This document shows, piece after piece, positions 45,001 to 50,702 of a DNA stretch of 50,702 nt; within the stretch, counting starts at the first letter, position 1, and each line of letters starts with the position of its first letter. Made by a program: the position numbers. The stretch is from a virus. The DNA lies in the UHGV virus genome UHGV-0140686, one strand, 5' to 3'.

Positions 45001-48000
45001 CACTAAAACCCCTTTCAACATTTCTTTCGCACAAACCCTCGTTTGCGCGAACGCTATTTTTTGGAGCAAAAACATGGCCTATGTTCCACCCGTGGGGCAG
45101 ACAACAGACCCCGATATTTTTCTGGATAACGTCAAGCGGGCCGATCGGTTGGTGAACGGGCCCGCCGGTACTGTGGATGACCGCGGCGGGGTGCCGCTCG
45201 ACTCCTGGCGCCAAATTATGGTTATGGTCGCGGCTGCGATTGAGGATGCGCGGAAAAACATTGCTCCACTTGGAAAGCAATACACAACCTTGCCAGAAGC
45301 AGAAAACGATATAGCGAATATTCCTGCTGGCGCTGTGTTCTGGGTTCTGAGCCCGGATGGAAACGCCCTCGCAGATGAATATATCAATAACAGCGGCACG
45401 CTCGAGTCTACAGGGCGACAAATGTTGTCGCTTGAAGCTTTTGAAAGGATCGCCAGTTTTTTTTCTTTGATGAATCCGTCTGTTTATAAGGGGAACGGCC
45501 CTGTTTTCCCGTGGCAGACAGACATTACCGGGAAAGTGCTGCTGGGCTACGATAGTGAGAAGGAATCCGTGGTAGGTGCCGGACTTCTTGCAATCGACAA
45601 AGTTAACGAGCTGATCCAGGTCCAAATAAAAACAGCCCTGCAGCAACTTGGCATGGCTATGTATAAAGGCGATGGGCCTGTTTTTCCCTGGTATACCGAT
45701 GCGACCGGTAATAAGGTTCTGCTGGGCTACGATAAAGATCTGCAACGCGTGGTAGGCGCCTTTACGGCCAATGCTAACCAGATAATCAGGGCTCCACTTA
45801 TCCCGATTGCTGAACATCTTCGTCCCATTGTGAAGGCGATGAACATCATGCAGGGTTACGGCCAGTCGTTAAGCGTGGGCGCGATGGGGTTGCCGGTTAT
45901 CTCGACTATACAGCCATACGCCAACCTGACGTTCGTCAGCGGGCCTCGCGGCTACAATCACATCTACACTGCACTTGTGCCGCTGGTAGAAGACAACCGC
46001 ACAGCGCCGGACGGCGGAGGAAATCGTGGCGAAACTTTCTGTTCTGGGGCGGCGAACTACGCGACAACGCTCGCGGCCATCGAGAACGGCGTTGACCCGT
46101 CAGACCACGTCATTTTCGCGGCGACCGCCGGTAAGGGCGGCACCAAAATTGCAGACCTGGTGAAAGGCACCGCCTGGTATAACTCAAACTTCCTGCCGCA
46201 AATCAACGGCGCATACGCGCTGAACAATGATTCTGCAGTTCACGTCGTCCCCTGGTTGCAGGGTGAGACCGATAATGACCAGTCACCGCCGACAACCTAT
46301 CCGGTTTATCGTGGGCATCTTGAGGGCCTGCAGGTCAGCGTTGAGGGGGATATAAAGGCTATCAACGGACAGCAGTCGCCGGTTCACTTCCTGACGTATC
46401 AGTGTTCCTACAAAGTCAGAACCAGTACAGCCGTTGCGCTGGCGCAGCTGGATCTTGCGAACGAAAACGAGAAGTTTCACCTTACGACGCCGTGCTACCA
46501 CCTACCGTTTGCGTCAGATGGCACCCACCTGAATAACGTGGGCTACAAATGGCTAAGCGGCTATATTGGTAGGGCCTACAAGACGCTTGTACACGACAAG
46601 TGCGTGCCGCAGTACCTCAAGCCGGTATCCGCGACTCTGCGCGGACGTATCATCACGCTTCTGCTTGACCCACCGGTGTCGCCCGTCGTCATCGATACGT
46701 CACTGCTCGCAAGCACAACCAACAACGGCTTTCGCGCCAAAGGCATCGCAAGCAACGCCACGCTGACCATCGAGTCCATGATGACCGAAGGCAAACAAGT
46801 CTTCATCACGCTGACTGAGGAACCGACCGAAGCCGTGTCACTGCGCTACGCGCTCGACTACCTGGGCGCCGGGCTGAACATCGTCAATGGCGCATCCGGC
46901 AACCTGCGAGACAGTGAGCCTTCAACCATCAACATTCTTGGCGTCGAGCGACCGTTATTTAACGTTTGCCCGCACTTCGAGCTGAACGTAATCAAGGTAG
47001 GTGAATAATGTTAGGCTTCTTTCAGACACCTGTTATTTATTCAGGAAATGATTTACCCGTTATTCCTGAAAGCGATATCGAGAGATTTGAGGTTGTTTAT
47101 GAGGCGGATGCGTATGAGCATTGGGCTTTGAATGGGACTAATATGTCTCTGTCGGGGTTAGTAAACAGGCGACTGCTGACAATGACAGGAGGGGTAACGG
47201 GAGAGTCCGGAAACTTCACGATGAATGTAAATACGAGTGCAAAGCGTGGGCTGAGAAGTGATAAAGCGGATAGCCTGATACAAACACAGTGTGCAGTTAT
47301 TCGCGTAGATTCAACTCCGGCAGCGTCTGCATCTGCATCAATACTATTTGGCTCATTGAATCAGAGCTCAGGCTCTGCGGTTTATATTGATGAAAACCCA
47401 TTTATCCGCCGCCAGTTCCGCCCGACAATAAGTGTTACAGGAGAGAAACAGGCAAGCGGTCTTGCAAACAAATGGTTGTTTGTTGCCTTTTCTGAAGATG
47501 GAACTTCTACAACGATGAAATCGATCATCCTGGTAGGAGGTGAAACGCCCTCTGTCGTTGAAAAGGTGTATGCGCAAGCAAAAACCGTTGGCACTAATAA
47601 TGTTAGCCTTGGACCAATCGACTATAGCTCAAGCGTTCTCGGTTATCCTGTAAAGCTGGACGTGGCTGAATATATTGTATACGACAAGGCGCTTTCGGGA
47701 ATTGAGATGCTTTCCGTTTACATCAGATCAAAAAAACGGCTTGCCAGTCGCGGAATTATCATTGAGTAATTAATAGATAAAATGAGCGGCTATCACCATC
47801 GATAGCCGCTGTCTGGTCAGAAAGTCACAGAGGGGAATTTCGCCTGGACGCATCGCAGGAGATACGCATGCACCGTGGTCTGTTCTTCTTCAGATAATAC
47901 CCGGTCAAACACGAGGTAGGCACCAATCCGGCTTGTGGCCGTAGTTGAGCCCCATAACCCCACGCCTCCCTTACCAACCCGAATATTCGCTGGCGCTCGC

Positions 48001-50702
48001 TCAAGAGAGCCGGTTAACGTTGTGCTTGTTACGATATTATTCGTTCTATCCTTCAGGGTGCTTTTCCCTCCATCGAGTACCAGACTTAAAAGCATCGGTT
48101 TTTCTTTGTGGAACGTTGACACATCACCGTACGCCACTCCGTAAATATCGGTCGAGGTGTTGTGATAACCCTGAGACAAACGCATCATACCACTGGCTTC
48201 AATTAGGATGCTGACTCCAGGGTGATTATTTGCACTCGTGCCGGTATAGCTTCCCATAACAATGCGCTGTGATGCGTCATTATTTGGATCGAAAAGCGCA
48301 AACCACGTTTGGGCCCCGCTGTCTGGAATCCCGAGGTTCAGGTGTGCAACAGAAGCATTATTTGAGAATGAGGCAAATGGCGTACCATTAATGATGGATG
48401 GTGCGCCGACAGTGTTCGGTAAATCTTCACCGGGCATTAAATTATTTCCGATCCCGGTATATGTGAATATTTCCGCCCTGCGAAGGGAGGTTGTATCAAA
48501 GCCGGGGGAGTAACCATCATGCTCTGAAATACTGGACTCAGTGTTATTGGTATAAAGCGTAATACCCATGATTTTTCCTTATGCAGCGATAGTGGTTATG
48601 ACCTGAGCCCAGGCCCAGTTATTCAGGTTGTAGGGTTTACCTACTAATTCTGGGATATTCTCATCGGAGTACTGGCCGCTACCCGCGGTATAAACGTAAT
48701 TTTCAGTAGCCAGGAACGGGTCGCTGTCTTTCAGGCAACCATTACCTCCATGTGCCGTTTTATCGGCATACCAGATTTTCACGGTGCCGACGGCGATACG
48801 ACCAAATGTCAGTTTCACAACGGTATCGGCGGCAATTTCAGCCGCAGTAATAGGCAGCGCACCATTATCATCGGTGGCGCGGTATCCCTTATCGGCGTAA
48901 GTGGTCGCCGTCCTGCCTACATAGGGAGTACCCCACTGGAGGGGAGGATAGGGAACTGCGTAGGAGAACAAGCCAACATTGCCTTTAACTTCTGCGCTGA
49001 CGCAATGTAACGGTTCCCAGCCCTCACCCAGGACCAGCACGCGGAACGCGACCTTTGCATCCTGCTGAGACCGCCACCGATACCCGTTACTGGTTAAATG
49101 ACCGCCTTTATCCGGCAACTGATAGGTGGTACCAGAGCCGTAAAAATTCCCGCCGGCCGTCACAAGGTCTAACTGGGCCATCCCGATCGCAAGTTCGTAG
49201 GTATCGCTGGTATAGCTCGCCCCGGTCTGGCTCATGAACACTGCGGGGGGATTTTGCCCGGCGCAAAAATCGGACACCAGGTCATCGTAATATTTGAGGA
49301 ATAGTGACTTCCATCCTTCCCGGGTACCATCACCGCCATAACTGGCGTTATAGTTCCATTGCCCCTGATCGAACAGAATGGCGCCGATACCAAACGATTT
49401 ACCCTGGCTATCCGCAATCGCTTTAATTTTGGTCACAGCTTCACGAACACGATTATAAAGCTCCGGACTTGCACCTTTCGAAAGGGCCTCAATAGTCCTC
49501 CCGTTCACCCCGCAACTTGCCAGCACGAATACGCGAGAAGGATCGGTTAGCAACGACATATGCCGCAGGAATAACGCCCGCAACATGTTAACCGTCGCAA
49601 CCGCGCCTTCACCTTCGTTAGGGGCGCCGGCAGGCAACGCAGAAATTTGCGCTGTAGTCAAAATCGTGGAGCCGTCCGAGCTTTGCACCACAGCCTTTAG
49701 CGGCTTCAGTTCCGGCGTGCCGACGGGGGTGAAATTCGCGGCGGTCCTGCTGTTTGGCCGCGGGCTATCACCCAGCATCAGGTTACCCAGATTCTCGTAA
49801 ACACTCGTGCTCAGCGCCGGGAACCCCTCCTGAGTCGATTCCAGAGACTGGCCCGAGCCCAGAATTAACGTAAGTGCAAACACAAGACGCTCGATGTCTG
49901 TGTTGTATCGGCTACGGACCTGGCTGTAATAATTGAGGTTCTCAGCGTTCAGAATATCGATCCTGTCCTGCAATGACATTCCGCCCCCGACCCAATTCCC
50001 GTATCTATCGACAACAGTTTTAGTTCTGCCAATGATATCGGCCGCCTTGATAAACTCAGGGCCAGAGATATCGATCCGGGCATTACCGCCGTCAAACACA
50101 ATCCCATTCCGGGCCAGTCTCGCAGCATCCGTTCCGAAAGCCCCGGCAGCTGTCGCGCGCAGACTCCTCGGAGCAACAACCCCATTTTCATCAATGATCG
50201 TTACCCGCTGCCCGATGAAGTTCTGGACATATACCCCGGCTCCCTCGGAAACCTTCAGATTAAACCCGGATAATTCGATCCCGTCAGGTTTTATGCGCGT
50301 GAATTTTGTCCCAAATTCCCCGGAAGTCAGCGCGTAAAATTGGCGCCAGCCAAGCAAATCAACAACTTTGAAAATTACTTCGCTGGCGTCCCCCTTCTTA
50401 ATCGTTTCATTCAGCGTTTTGATCTTCTCGTTGGCCTGGTATTCCGAAGAAACCCACTCTGTACCTGTCCAGAGATATTGCTCACCGGTACTGGTATCGA
50501 CCGCCAGGACGTTTGGTTTATCCGGCGTATAGGCCAGCAACTCATCACGCGAGCCAAACCCCAGAGCGCCGCCGTTTTCCTGGAAGTTATCGAGCGTATC
50601 TTCCATTTTTTGTTGCTGAAGTCGCCAGGTATATAGCGGTTTACCGCCGCGGTCAGGAACGGTGGCCGGCGGCCCGTTCACCAGTTCATCGGCGCGCTTT
50701 AC

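What the first reader, a model, noticed from the sequence alone, without database searches (positions are those of the whole stretch)
45074..50702. Two paralogous SGNH-esterase tail-fibre cassettes in inverted orientation
Fibre 1 plus its accessory gene (45074..47769, plus strand) and fibre 2 plus its accessory gene (47817 to beyond 50702, minus strand) are convergent paralogues with different C-terminal regions. Both share the N-terminal anchor motif and both carry GQS and D-x-x-H esterase blocks. Their homologous N-terminal coding segments form inverted repeats at the outer edges, so recombination between them would invert the 5.5-kb interior and swap receptor-binding modules, as in Mu G-segment-type switches. 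They could equally be two independent fibres with different glycan specificities.
Basis: partly seen in the sequence, partly recalled or inferred. Interest (0 to 1): 0.7.

Follow-up and report, generated by a model that had tools for sequence, protein, structure and literature searches.

The report
Invertible two-spike switch in Klebsiella prophage
A temperate Klebsiella/Raoultella phage carries two complete, alternative sugar-esterase tail-spike gene pairs on a 5.8-kb DNA segment that a Mu-Gin-like enzyme can flip, so one genome can probably make virions with either host-recognition spike; this is a new layout of a well-known kind of switch.

Summary
The described layout is real. Two convergent cassettes follow the gpJ-like tail-tip gene. 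Each holds a SASA/SGNH-type esterase spike and a ~250-aa partner.

It is a 54-nt inverted repeat (one mismatch) that starts 48 nt upstream of each start codon. Its first 26 bp (TTCGCACAAACC-CT-CGTTTGCGCGAA) have the 12-2-12 form of Mu gix sites.

Only the left arm (45026-45079) lies in the window, which ends 52 nt short of the right arm. Sibling contigs continue into that arm and then a 189-aa invertase (E~1e-72 to Mu Gin).

In two related prophages the same 5.5-kb segment (96% identical) lies in opposite orientations. The breakpoints fall exactly at the 26-bp sites, and the flanks stay collinear.

The sites sit in the 5' UTR, so whole gene pairs are exchanged behind the tail operon. This differs from Mu, where C-terminal modules join a constant N-terminus.

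The "accessory" proteins are lectin-like jelly-rolls resembling the second tailspike subunit of cyanophage Pan3, not chaperones.

This element itself was seen in one orientation only (seven samples). Verdict: a new variant of a known kind.

The parts
41931..44996 (+). gpJ-like tail-tip / host-specificity protein (1021 aa). It is the last constant gene of the tail operon, and its transcript is presumed to read into whichever cassette faces it.
   Evidence: Pfam FNIII-A_GpJ, E 4e-11. The stop codon lies 29 nt before the crossover site. No terminator-like site was found between it and fibre 1.
45026..45051 (+). Left crossover site, gix/hix-like: TTCGCACAAACC CT CGTTTGCGCGAA. It consists of two 12-bp imperfect dyad half-sites around a 2-bp core.
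   Evidence: It is the only match in the window at up to 3 mismatches, with 0 expected by chance. An identical copy in inverted orientation lies next to the invertase in siblings. The form matches Mu gixL and gixR read from NC_000929. The exact 26-mer is conserved in 31 distinct flank contexts.
45026..45079 (+). Left arm of the 54-nt inverted repeat (one mismatch, at 45073). It comprises the site, a T-run, the Shine-Dalgarno GGAG, an A-run and ATGGCC. The right arm would lie at window-equivalent 50754-50807, outside the window.
   Evidence: the repeat finder on sibling L011 gives arms 5953-6006 and 11681-11734, 54 nt, 98% complementary, 5674 nt apart. The sequence was read directly.
45074..47008 (+). 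Spike A (fibre 1, 644 aa). It has an N-terminal anchor (~aa 1-65), an internal ~60-aa duplication, a SASA/SGNH esterase domain (GQS 263-265, D482, H485) and a C-terminal beta-sandwich. In this orientation it faces the tail operon.
   Evidence: phrog_4201. Homologues carry PF03629 and are named sialate O-acetylesterase. The AF2 model has pLDDT 83.5. Foldseek matches the Pan3 tailspike 9VYH (E 2e-21) and the carbohydrate acetylesterases 7KMM, 8F9P, 1ZMB and 3PT5.
47008..47769 (+). Partner A (253 aa), of the same family as partner B and translationally coupled to spike A (the ATG overlaps the stop codon). The ConA/LamG-like jelly-roll fold is inferred from family membership; only partner B was modelled.
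   Evidence: phrog_4390, E 9e-21. It aligns with the partner-B family at 22% identity. It has no Pfam hit.
47785..47810 (.). GC-rich hairpin between the two convergent cassettes, at the centre of the invertible segment. It is a probable transcription stop or 3' stabiliser. The U-rich tail is on the minus strand only.
   Evidence: Terminator-like call with an 11-bp stem. The RNA fold gives -20.1 kcal/mol, z -4.4. Sequence read.
47817..48569 (-). Partner B (250 aa), a lectin-like jelly-roll that resembles the second tailspike subunit (gp15) of cyanopodophage Pan3.
   Evidence: The AF2 model has pLDDT 87. Foldseek matches the lectin-like subdomain of clostridial neurotoxin Hc (E~1e-7) and 9VYH chain p (E 3e-6). 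A family profile matches 9VYH 'tailspike gp15' at E 0.019.
48579..50702 (-). Spike B (fibre 2). The window holds codons 20-726; the first 19 codons and the start codon lie beyond the window end. It is a divergent member of the same esterase-spike family (GQS 303-305; DKGGH 550-554). In this orientation it faces away from the tail operon.
   Evidence: Translation is open to the window end. Full-length forms of 725/726 aa occur in siblings. hhalign to the fibre-1 family gives E 5e-25. The body plus a 250-aa partner also occurs as a module in a myovirus-type Klebsiella prophage.

Best explanation
The region is most of a Gin-type invertible DNA segment, about 5.76 kb between crossover cores, at the right end of a lambdoid Klebsiella/Raoultella prophage.

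Anatomy (shown). The order is: gpJ-like gene, 26-bp site, [spike A + partner A] hairpin [partner B + spike B] in convergent orientation, 26-bp site inverted, then 43 nt and a Gin-like serine invertase. The window ends 52 nt before the right repeat arm, so that arm and the invertase are seen only in sibling contigs.

Mechanism (inferred from the family). The invertase binds both sites, cuts at the identical CT core and rotates the strands, which flips the segment.

Consequence (inferred from the anatomy). Each site lies 22 nt upstream of a start codon, and the repeat includes the Shine-Dalgarno sequence. Inversion therefore does not alter any protein. It decides which complete two-gene cassette is placed behind the tail-operon transcript, with an identical translation start. 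The other cassette then points towards the invertase gene, has no detectable promoter, and is presumed silent.

What each cassette encodes (homology and predicted fold). Each cassette appears to encode a two-subunit tailspike: a carbohydrate O-acetyl-esterase and a lectin-like partner. A lysogen population would therefore release virions with one of two glycan specificities.

Side effect (shown by comparison). Because the sites flank complete operons, the segment also behaves as an exchangeable cassette between different prophage backbones.
For: - Sites. An exact 26-bp dyad site sits upstream of fibre 1. An identical inverted copy sits upstream of fibre 2 in siblings. The repeat is 54 nt at 98%. 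Its form and its TT....AAAC(C/G) half-sites match Mu gixL/gixR read from the Mu genome.
- Invertase. A Resolvase+HTH_7 gene lies next to the right site in L001, L002, L005, L006 and L014. It matches Mu Gin (3UJ3/4M6F) at E~1e-72 over residues 1-181 and has Ser9. The basic helix-B residues typical of Fis/enhancer-dependent invertases are present.
- Both orientations in nature. L020 5652-11172 equals L031 8625-3131 reversed, 95.9% over 5529 nt, ending exactly at the sites. The gpJ flank (71.9%) and invertase flank (75.9%) stay collinear.
- Family. Paired inverted sites 5.5-6.6 kb apart occur in L017, L020, L028, L031 and L045, and in the induced, viable siphovirus KPP5665-2.
- Expression. No terminator lies between gpJ and fibre 1. 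No sigma-70-like promoter faces fibre 2. A hairpin separates the cassettes.
- Cassette mobility. The segment interior is 100% identical between L001 and L002 while the gpJ flank is 60-76% identical.
Against: - This element's own segment was seen in only one orientation, with fibre 1 next to gpJ, in seven independent samples. A scan for the flipped gpJ-fibre-2 junction found nothing, and the reciprocal scan returned only a different element.
- The right site and the invertase are not in the window. They are inferred from sibling contigs with identical genes.
- Silence of the distal cassette is inferred. The promoter scan covers only sigma-70 consensus.
- No Fis/enhancer element was demonstrated. 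Two of three DNA-binding-domain residues linked to Fis contact differ (Q to R, L to M).
- Decayed relatives exist, with a truncated invertase (L018, L019) or a lone site with no invertase (L037, L038), so activity cannot be assumed for every copy.
Confidence: 0.78

Rival explanations
1. Dual-spike phage. Both cassettes are expressed at once, fibre 2 from a promoter of its own, so virions carry both esterase spikes as multi-spike Klebsiella phages do. The invertase and repeats would be a relic, or would serve only for evolutionary cassette exchange.
For: Fibre 2 has its own start codon, Shine-Dalgarno sequence and complete anchor domain. This element was seen in only one orientation. The promoter scan detects only sigma-70 consensus.
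Against: Only 92 nt separate the fibre-2 and invertase start codons. That stretch holds the site and a conserved TACAAT that faces the invertase gene, not fibre 2. The 26-mer is perfectly conserved in both arms across backbones whose gpJ is only 60-97% identical. In KPP5665-2 both arms changed in the same way. L020 and L031 carry the same segment flipped.
Confidence: 0.1
2. Frozen switch. The architecture is that of an invertible segment, but in this lineage inversion no longer occurs or is extremely rare, so fibre 2 is an unexpressed reserve copy.
For: Fibre 1 lies next to gpJ in 7 of 7 samples. Decayed relatives exist: L018 has a fibre/invertase deletion, L019 has a truncated, frameshifted invertase, and L037/L038 have one site and no invertase.
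Against: In siblings of this element both sites are perfect and the invertase ORF is intact with its catalytic Ser9. Fibre 2 and partner B are intact ORFs that are 100% conserved between backbones. A founder effect can also give a uniform orientation, because the lysogen inherits the orientation of the infecting virion and Gin-type inversion is slow (established for Mu, from my own knowledge).
Confidence: 0.1
3. General homologous recombination between the inverted N-terminal coding segments flips the interior and creates hybrid fibres.
For: A real inverted repeat exists in the coding N-termini: 80-101 nt at 71-73%. Mosaic boundaries between relatives fall within the first ~150-200 nt of the fibre genes.
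Against: Identity of 71-73% with no long exact stretch is a poor substrate. A far better repeat (54 nt, 98%) lies just outside it. The flipped relative has its breakpoints exactly at the 26-bp sites, not in the coding repeat.
Confidence: 0.02

Closest known systems
Phage Mu G segment with Gin (likewise P1 C segment/Cin and e14 P segment/Pin)
   Same: A small serine invertase 65% identical to Gin lies next to one of two inverted 26-bp 12-2-12 sites. The segment holds two convergent tail-fibre-plus-accessory gene pairs. The gap from site to invertase start is 43 nt, against 54 nt in Mu.
   Different: In Mu the left site lies inside gene S, so a constant N-terminal part is fused to alternative C-terminal parts (annotation). 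Here both sites lie in the 5' UTR and each fibre is a complete ORF with its own anchor. The accessory genes are lectin-like jelly-rolls, not U/Tfa-type assembly proteins. The fibres are esterase spikes, and the phage is a lambdoid siphovirus.
Salmonella Hin H-segment (flagellar phase variation)
   Same: Inversion by a Gin/Hin-family enzyme changes which gene is joined to a transcription signal and leaves the protein sequences unchanged (PMC3798978).
   Different: Hin flips a promoter and carries hin inside a ~1-kb segment. Here the promoter side is fixed, the coding cassettes flip, and the invertase lies outside the segment.
Enterobacter temperate phage FR-phi tail-fibre shufflon with Gin (Nat Microbiol 2026, PMC13418256)
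   Same: A temperate enterobacterial phage whose Gin-family recombinase, downstream of the tail-fibre gene, sets receptor specificity. That study showed it with long reads and gin-deletion locked strains.
   Different: FR-phi joins one N-terminal region to three alternative C-terminal domains through several sites. Here there are exactly two sites (no third at up to 5 mismatches) and whole genes are exchanged.
Klebsiella phage KPP5665-2 (MF695815), an induced, plaque-forming siphovirus
   Same: Same layout: gpJ-like gp19, a site variant TTCGCTCAAACCCTCGTTTGGGCGAA in two inverted copies, convergent cassettes, and a gp23 DNA invertase 92% identical.
   Different: Its cassette A is a single 1220-aa 'O-glycosyl hydrolase' with no partner gene. 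The genome announcement does not mention an invertible segment.
SGNH-hydrolase tail fibres of K. pneumoniae prophages (PLoS Biol 2026, PMC13123978); E. coli phage G7C gp63.1 deacetylase
   Same: The spikes belong to the SGNH/SASA esterase class. That paper reports this class as the most frequent receptor-binding protein type in Klebsiella prophages and shows esterase activity.
   Different: That study does not use the words invert or recombinase. Here two such spikes are wired as alternatives of one switch.
Cyanopodophage Pan3 tailspike (PDB 9VYH)
   Same: The fibre-1 model matches the 'Tail spike protein' chains (Foldseek E 2e-21; profile E 3.9e-6). The partner-B model matches the 269-270-aa 'tailspike gp15' chains of the same entry (Foldseek E 3e-6; profile E 0.019).
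   Different: The host and phage type are very distant, and sequence identity is only 11-17%. Complex formation here is inferred, not shown.

Membership tests
Gin/Hin/Cin/Pin-type serine DNA-invertase system | A small (~190 aa) serine recombinase with an N-terminal catalytic domain (Ser9/10 nucleophile) and a C-terminal helix-turn-helix | tested here: met
   A 189-aa ORF in siblings (L011 11778-12347) carries Pfam Resolvase+HTH_7. It matches Mu Gin 3UJ3/4M6F at E~1e-72 over residues 1-181 and has Ser9. It is encoded just outside the window (window-equivalent 50851-51420).
Gin/Hin/Cin/Pin-type serine DNA-invertase system | Two 26-bp crossover sites in inverted orientation, each an imperfect dyad of 12-bp half-sites around a 2-bp core, with identical cores | tested here: met
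   TTCGCACAAACC CT CGTTTGCGCGAA lies at 45026-45051, with an identical inverted copy in siblings. Compare Mu gixL TTATCCAAAACC TC GGTTTACAGGAA and gixR TTCCTGTAAACC GA GGTTTTGGATAA. Only the left site is inside the window.
Gin/Hin/Cin/Pin-type serine DNA-invertase system | The invertase gene lies directly next to one crossover site | tested here: met
   43 nt separate the right site from the invertase ATG in L011. This spacer is conserved across 14 invertase-side contexts. The gap in Mu is 54 nt.
Gin/Hin/Cin/Pin-type serine DNA-invertase system | Fis-bound recombinational enhancer (in Mu it lies within the invertase gene), and the protein residues that contact it | tested here: inconclusive
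   The enhancer DNA was not tested, because no reliable Fis-site model was available. Protein proxies from PMC3798978: the helix-B basic residues are present (K46, R47, R50). In DNA-binding-domain helix 1 the Arg is kept, Leu is replaced by Met, and Gln by Arg (Gln is kept in the L017 relative).
Gin/Hin/Cin/Pin-type serine DNA-invertase system | The segment is actually found in both orientations | tested here: inconclusive
   Met for the family: L020 and L031 hold the same segment flipped, with breakpoints at the sites. Not met for this element: 7 of 7 samples show one orientation, and no flipped junction of this element was found in IMG/VR. Read-level data were not available.
Mu G / P1 C / e14 P-type tail-fibre C-terminal exchange | A crossover site inside the fibre ORF, so that a constant N-terminal part is joined to alternative C-terminal parts | tested here: not met
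   The site ends 22 nt upstream of the fibre-1 ATG and begins 29 nt after the gpJ stop. ATG 45074 is the first start codon after an in-frame stop. Fibre 2 likewise has its own ATG just inside its site.
Mu G / P1 C / e14 P-type tail-fibre C-terminal exchange | The accessory gene of each alternative is a U/Tfa-type tail-fibre assembly protein | tested here: not met
   Neither partner has a Pfam hit. Both fall in phrog_4390, of unknown function. The predicted fold is a lectin-like jelly-roll matching Pan3 tailspike gp15.
SGNH/SASA carbohydrate O-acetyl-esterase | Block I G-Q-S (serine nucleophile) and block V D-x-x-H | tested here: met
   This row concerns fibre 1. G263-Q264-S265, D482 and H485 are invariant in 41 homologues. 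Pfam SASA is below threshold for the protein itself, but many homologues carry PF03629.
SGNH/SASA carbohydrate O-acetyl-esterase | The same motifs and fold in fibre 2 | tested here: inconclusive
   GQS (303-305) aligns with block I, and the histidine of HLT(S/N)xGY aligns, but the Asp spacing is D-K-G-G-H. Fibre 2 has no Pfam hit. Its structure was not modelled.
SGNH/SASA carbohydrate O-acetyl-esterase | The alpha/beta/alpha SGNH fold | tested here: met
   This row concerns fibre 1. The AF2 model has pLDDT 83.5. Foldseek matches carbohydrate acetylesterase 7KMM (E 1e-11), sialic acid esterase 8F9P, 1ZMB, 2APJ and NanS 3PT5.
SGNH/SASA carbohydrate O-acetyl-esterase | Esterase activity on a host glycan | not testable with these tools
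   This needs recombinant protein and Klebsiella capsule or O-antigen. Related prophage fibres hydrolyse pNP-acetate (PMC13123978).
Two-subunit tailspike of the Pan3 type (spike protein plus gp15) | Both subunits are homologous to the two chain types of PDB 9VYH and are encoded side by side | tested here: met
   Fibre 1 matches 9VYH chains m and o (Foldseek E 2e-21; profile E 3.9e-6). Partner B matches 9VYH chains p and q (Foldseek E 3e-6; profile E 0.019, marginal). Physical association was not tested.

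The most novel reading that the evidence does not exclude
The crossover sites flank complete spike operons, each with its own ribosome-binding site, instead of cutting through a gene. The gix-bounded segment could therefore act as a universal docking slot for receptor-binding cassettes. Gin-type recombination, together with homologous exchange in the conserved repeat and anchor region, would move whole spike operons between unrelated Klebsiella prophage backbones as well as flipping them. 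The cassettes seen include esterase-plus-lectin pairs and a 1220-aa glycosidase. On this reading a sizeable share of Klebsiella temperate phages carries a hidden second host specificity that sequence-based capsule-type prediction miscounts.
Probability: 0.25. Interest if true: 0.7.

Novelty: new variant of a known kind. Interest (0 to 1): 0.5.

Why it matters
Invertible tail-fibre segments have been known since Mu and P1, so the principle is not new. Three things are new here.

1. The wiring. The crossover lies in the 5' UTR, so complete two-gene spike operons are exchanged. This removes any need for the alternatives to share a reading frame or an N-terminal part. It allows very different receptor-binding enzymes to be paired: two esterases here, and a glycosidase with an esterase in KPP5665-2.

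2. The setting. SGNH-esterase fibres were recently reported as the most frequent receptor-binding proteins of K. pneumoniae prophages and as predictors of capsule type. That study does not mention inversion. If many prophages carry two alternatives with only one expressed, genome-based host-range and K-type predictions are confounded, and so is phage-therapy or engineering work that uses these proteins. The invertase's 90%-identity cluster has 2123 member sequences across Klebsiella species.

3. The 'accessory' genes. They look like a second, lectin-like tailspike subunit and not like chaperones. That changes which proteins should be tested for receptor binding.

Tried and rejected
- Megablast of the region against 5,426 complete E. 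coli genomes and 50,697 phage records found nothing. The element is not from E. coli and has no close sequenced phage relative.
- Megablast of the 47-nt repeat against phages found nothing. The low-complexity filter or the variant sites probably explain this. The variant sites were found later through the invertase protein.
- I searched for the flipped state of this element in several ways. Exact-protein look-ups of partner B, fibre 1 and gpJ showed one orientation only. The tool may hide places with the same gene set, which is a caveat. A scan of IMG/VR for the flipped gpJ-fibre-2 junction found nothing. The reciprocal scan returned one contig (L033), whose fibre resembles fibre 1 only in its first ~137 residues (63.5%), so it is a different element.
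- A systematic comparison of 20 gpJ-side and 15 invertase-side cassettes found only the L020/L031 flip.
- I looked for a third site, which would indicate a shufflon. None occurs at up to 5 mismatches in any locus.
- Sequence searches of both fibres against the PDB gave nothing useful. Profiles and predicted folds were needed instead.
- I considered the contig ends near the repeats as evidence of mixed orientations. This applies to the window's own contig and to the ERZ28650186 scaffolds. I rejected it because the break positions do not fall where a k=55 graph would branch for an inversion mixture.
- I considered the idea that the 700-aa variants of fibre 1 read through the site from upstream. 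I rejected it because they carry a different N-terminal anchor joined at residue ~70.
- The Fis enhancer was not tested, for want of a trustworthy site model.

Full report
**1. What is in the window**

Downstream of a tape-measure gene and a gpJ-like tail-tip gene (41931-44996; Pfam FNIII-A_GpJ) lie four ORFs:
- fibre 1, 45074-47008 (+), 644 aa
- a 253-aa partner, 47008-47769 (+)
- a 250-aa partner, 47817-48569 (-)
- fibre 2, 48579 to beyond 50702 (-), 707 codons open to the window end

The window as a whole is a lambdoid prophage. It has an integrase at 1-1185 (-) and a CI-like repressor at 8803-9435 (-). Exact or near-exact copies of its proteins occur in Klebsiella pneumoniae, K. variicola, K. 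quasipneumoniae and Raoultella. There is no close DNA match in E. coli genomes or in sequenced phages.

**2. Paralogy**

The two fibres are 52% identical over the first 63 residues and 27% identical over the last ~190. Both match phrog_4201 'tail fiber' from end to end. A profile of the fibre-1 family aligns fibre 2 over its whole length (E 5e-25).

The two partners are barely alignable pairwise, but both belong to phrog_4390.

**3. Where the real repeat is**

The coding N-termini form only a 71-73% inverted repeat.

Sibling contigs were found by exact look-up of partner B and fibre 1, and they run past the window end. In them fibre 2 is 725/726 aa with its own ATG. The 47 nt directly upstream of that ATG are identical to the 47 nt upstream of the fibre-1 ATG. 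The repeat finder gives arms of 54 nt at 98%, 5674 nt apart. The left arm is window 45026-45079. The right arm would be at 50754-50807, so the window stops 52 nt short of it.

The first 26 bp, TTCGCACAAACC-CT-CGTTTGCGCGAA, are two imperfect 12-bp dyad half-sites around a 2-bp core. Mu gixL and gixR, read from the Mu genome, have the same form (TTATCCAAAACC-TC-GGTTTACAGGAA and TTCCTGTAAACC-GA-GGTTTTGGATAA) and the same TT....AAAC(C/G) half-site skeleton. The two copies are inverted and have the same core, as inversion requires. No further copy exists at up to 3 mismatches in the window, or at up to 5 mismatches in any related locus.

**4. The invertase**

In every sibling that reaches far enough, the gene after fibre 2 encodes a 186-189-aa Resolvase+HTH_7 protein on the window's + strand, 43 nt from the right site. 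It matches Mu Gin (PDB 3UJ3, 4M6F) at E~1e-72 over residues 1-181, is 65% identical, and has Ser9.

McLean et al. 2013 (PMC3798978) list residues typical of Fis/enhancer-dependent invertases. The helix-B basic residues are all present. One of the three DNA-binding-domain residues is kept, one is conservatively replaced, and one is changed. Enhancer DNA was not tested.

A conserved TACAAT in the 43-nt spacer is a plausible -10 element for the invertase gene. Its -35 region would overlap the site (my inference).

**5. Does the segment invert?**

The exact 26-mer occurs in 18 IMG/VR contigs, 12 metagenome contigs and Raoultella terrigena NBRC 14941. It always lies either between a gpJ homologue and a fibre gene or between an invertase and a fibre gene. 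Five elements show both copies, 5.5-6.6 kb apart.

The decisive case is L020 against L031. L020 5652-11172 aligns to L031 8625-3131 in reverse at 95.9% over 5529 nt. The block starts and ends exactly at the outer ends of the sites, while the gpJ flank (71.9%) and invertase flank (75.9%) align in the direct sense (confirmed). The same segment therefore exists in both orientations, with breakpoints at the sites.

For the window's own segment I found only one orientation, in seven samples. A scan for the flipped gpJ-fibre-2 junction found nothing, and the reciprocal scan returned only a different element. Two readings fit:
- A founder effect with slow inversion, as is established for Mu (from my own knowledge).
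- A switch that is rarely used or no longer used.

Only reads can decide between them.

**6. What inversion would do**

The left site begins 29 nt after the gpJ stop and ends 22 nt before the fibre-1 ATG. That ATG is the first start codon after an in-frame stop. The repeat includes the GGAG ribosome-binding site.

So no protein is changed by inversion. Each fibre is complete and has its own anchor domain. What changes is which two-gene cassette lies behind the tail operon.

Three observations bear on expression:
- No terminator-like site separates gpJ from fibre 1, and no sigma-70-like promoter faces fibre 2.
- A strong hairpin (47785-47810; -20.1 kcal/mol, z -4.4) sits between the convergent cassettes, at the centre of the segment.
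- One-at-a-time expression is an inference from this anatomy. It has not been shown.

In logic the system lies between Mu G, which has the same enzyme family and the same cargo type, and Salmonella Hin, where the connection to a transcription signal changes and the protein does not.

**7. What the cassettes encode**

Fibre-1 homologues in Klebsiella, Raoultella, Acinetobacter and marine bacteria mostly carry Pfam SASA (PF03629) and are named sialate O-acetylesterase. G263-Q264-S265, D482 and H485 are invariant in 41 homologues.

The AlphaFold model (pLDDT 83.5) matches the cyanopodophage Pan3 tailspike (9VYH, E 2e-21). It also matches carbohydrate acetylesterases (7KMM, SIAE 8F9P, 1ZMB, NanS 3PT5).

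Fibre 2 shares the GQS block and the HL(T/N)xxGY histidine.

Partner B models confidently (pLDDT 87) as a jelly-roll. It resembles the lectin-like subdomain of clostridial neurotoxin binding domains and chain p of the same Pan3 tailspike entry. A family profile finds that chain, 'tailspike gp15', at E 0.019, and the fibre profile finds the 'Tail spike protein' chain at E 3.9e-6.

The simplest reading is that each cassette encodes a two-subunit spike, made of an esterase and a lectin-like partner, and that the partner is not a Tfa/U-type chaperone.

The fibre-plus-partner pair also occurs outside invertible segments:
- as a single, non-invertible module at the end of many Klebsiella prophages, without any site or invertase
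- behind a different anchor in a myovirus-type prophage

**8. Cassette mobility and decay**

L001 and L002 carry segments whose interiors are 100% identical, in backbones whose gpJ region is only 60-76% identical. L017 and L028 show the opposite: 95-98% identical flanks with different cassettes. Fibre bodies are also found behind other N-terminal anchors.

Some relatives have decayed. L018 has a deletion that fuses fibre and invertase remnants. L019 has a truncated invertase. L037 and L038 keep a perfect site but have no invertase within 7-10 kb.

The induced, plaque-forming siphovirus KPP5665-2 has the full layout. Its site variant is changed in the same way in both arms. Its cassette A is a 1220-aa glycosyl hydrolase. 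Its genome announcement does not mention any of this.

**9. Novelty**

Tail-fibre inversion by Gin-family enzymes is classical. It was recently re-demonstrated in an Enterobacter temperate phage with C-terminal domain shuffling (PMC13418256). Genome-wide surveys note prophage tail-fibre inversions as well known (PMC5903667).

I did not find three things described in the library:
- the whole-operon exchange with the crossover in the 5' UTR
- its link to the SGNH-esterase spikes that dominate Klebsiella prophage receptor-binding proteins
- the lectin-like second subunit

The two recent Klebsiella receptor-binding-protein papers contain no mention of inversion.

I rate this a new variant of a known kind. 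Interest is moderate (0.5). Confidence in the main explanation is 0.78.

Noticed in passing
L011 11808-11835 (invertase codons 11-19; window-equivalent ~50881-50908, outside the window): The stretch GGGGATCAAAACCTCGATTTACAGAAAA inside the invertase gene resembles Mu gixL (TTATCCAAAACCTCGGTTTACAGGAA) at about 19-20 of 26 positions. Mu gin has no such stretch at the same codons. Its core (TC) differs from the CT core of the real sites. It could be chance from the conserved DQNLDLQ codons, or a pseudo-site.
   Followed up: no
window 45052-45079, and the equivalent arm in related loci: The A-run between the GGAG ribosome-binding site and the ATG varies from 4 to 7 A among relatives, and between the two arms of one element (L001). 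The 5' UTR is predicted to fold into two hairpins: the site palindrome, and a pairing of the T-run with the A-run around the ribosome-binding site (-17.4 kcal/mol, z -2.5). This could tune translation of the cassette that faces the tail operon.
   Followed up: partly
window 45533-45580 and 45713-45760: Fibre 1 contains an internal tandem duplication of about 60 aa (YKGxGPVFPWxTD...KVLLGYD...VVGA), 77% identical at the DNA level over 48 nt and spaced 180 nt apart. It lies between the anchor and the esterase domain.
   Followed up: no
window end (50702), and L016/L014 (ERZ28650186 scaffolds 199 and 257): Assemblies tend to break near the repeats. The window's parent contig ends 2 nt after the window, 50 nt short of the right repeat arm. 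In another sample one scaffold ends inside the left site and the next starts 55 nt upstream. The positions do not fit a simple inversion-mixture graph. Co-existing N-terminal variants of fibre 2 (L001 type and L002 type) may be the cause.
   Followed up: partly
L058 (Klebsiella phage KPP5665-2, MF695815) 4442-4467 and 10932-10957: A viable induced siphovirus has the same switch. Its site variant, TTCGCTCAAACCCTCGTTTGGGCGAA, is changed in the same way in both arms. It pairs a 1220-aa 'O-glycosyl hydrolase' with an esterase fibre plus partner. Several of its tail genes are misannotated (kinase, ABC transporter permease, flagellar biosynthesis protein).
   Followed up: partly
L037 3577-3602; L038 5629-5654: Some prophages keep the perfect 26-bp site between gpJ and a single fibre gene but have no second site and no invertase within 7-10 kb. 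The site may persist as part of the 5' UTR. It may also be a target for an invertase supplied by another prophage.
   Followed up: no
L001 against L002, fibre-2 codons 1-~130 (L002 7811-8200): The same fibre-2 body carries different N-terminal ~25 residues in two backbones (MAFTPPLGNTSPEVLLDNAKR... against MAELNPPLGTTTPEIFMDNVKR...). Fibre 1's body occurs with a quite different 123-aa N-terminus in 700-aa variants. The anchors are exchanged as modules.
   Followed up: partly
L002 6103-6587 and 4337-6024; L011 12910-13935: Just beyond the invertase lie a DinI-like gene and a umuDC-like pair (Peptidase_S24 plus IMS). These may be prophage cargo or the host flank, so the right prophage boundary is undefined.
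   Followed up: no
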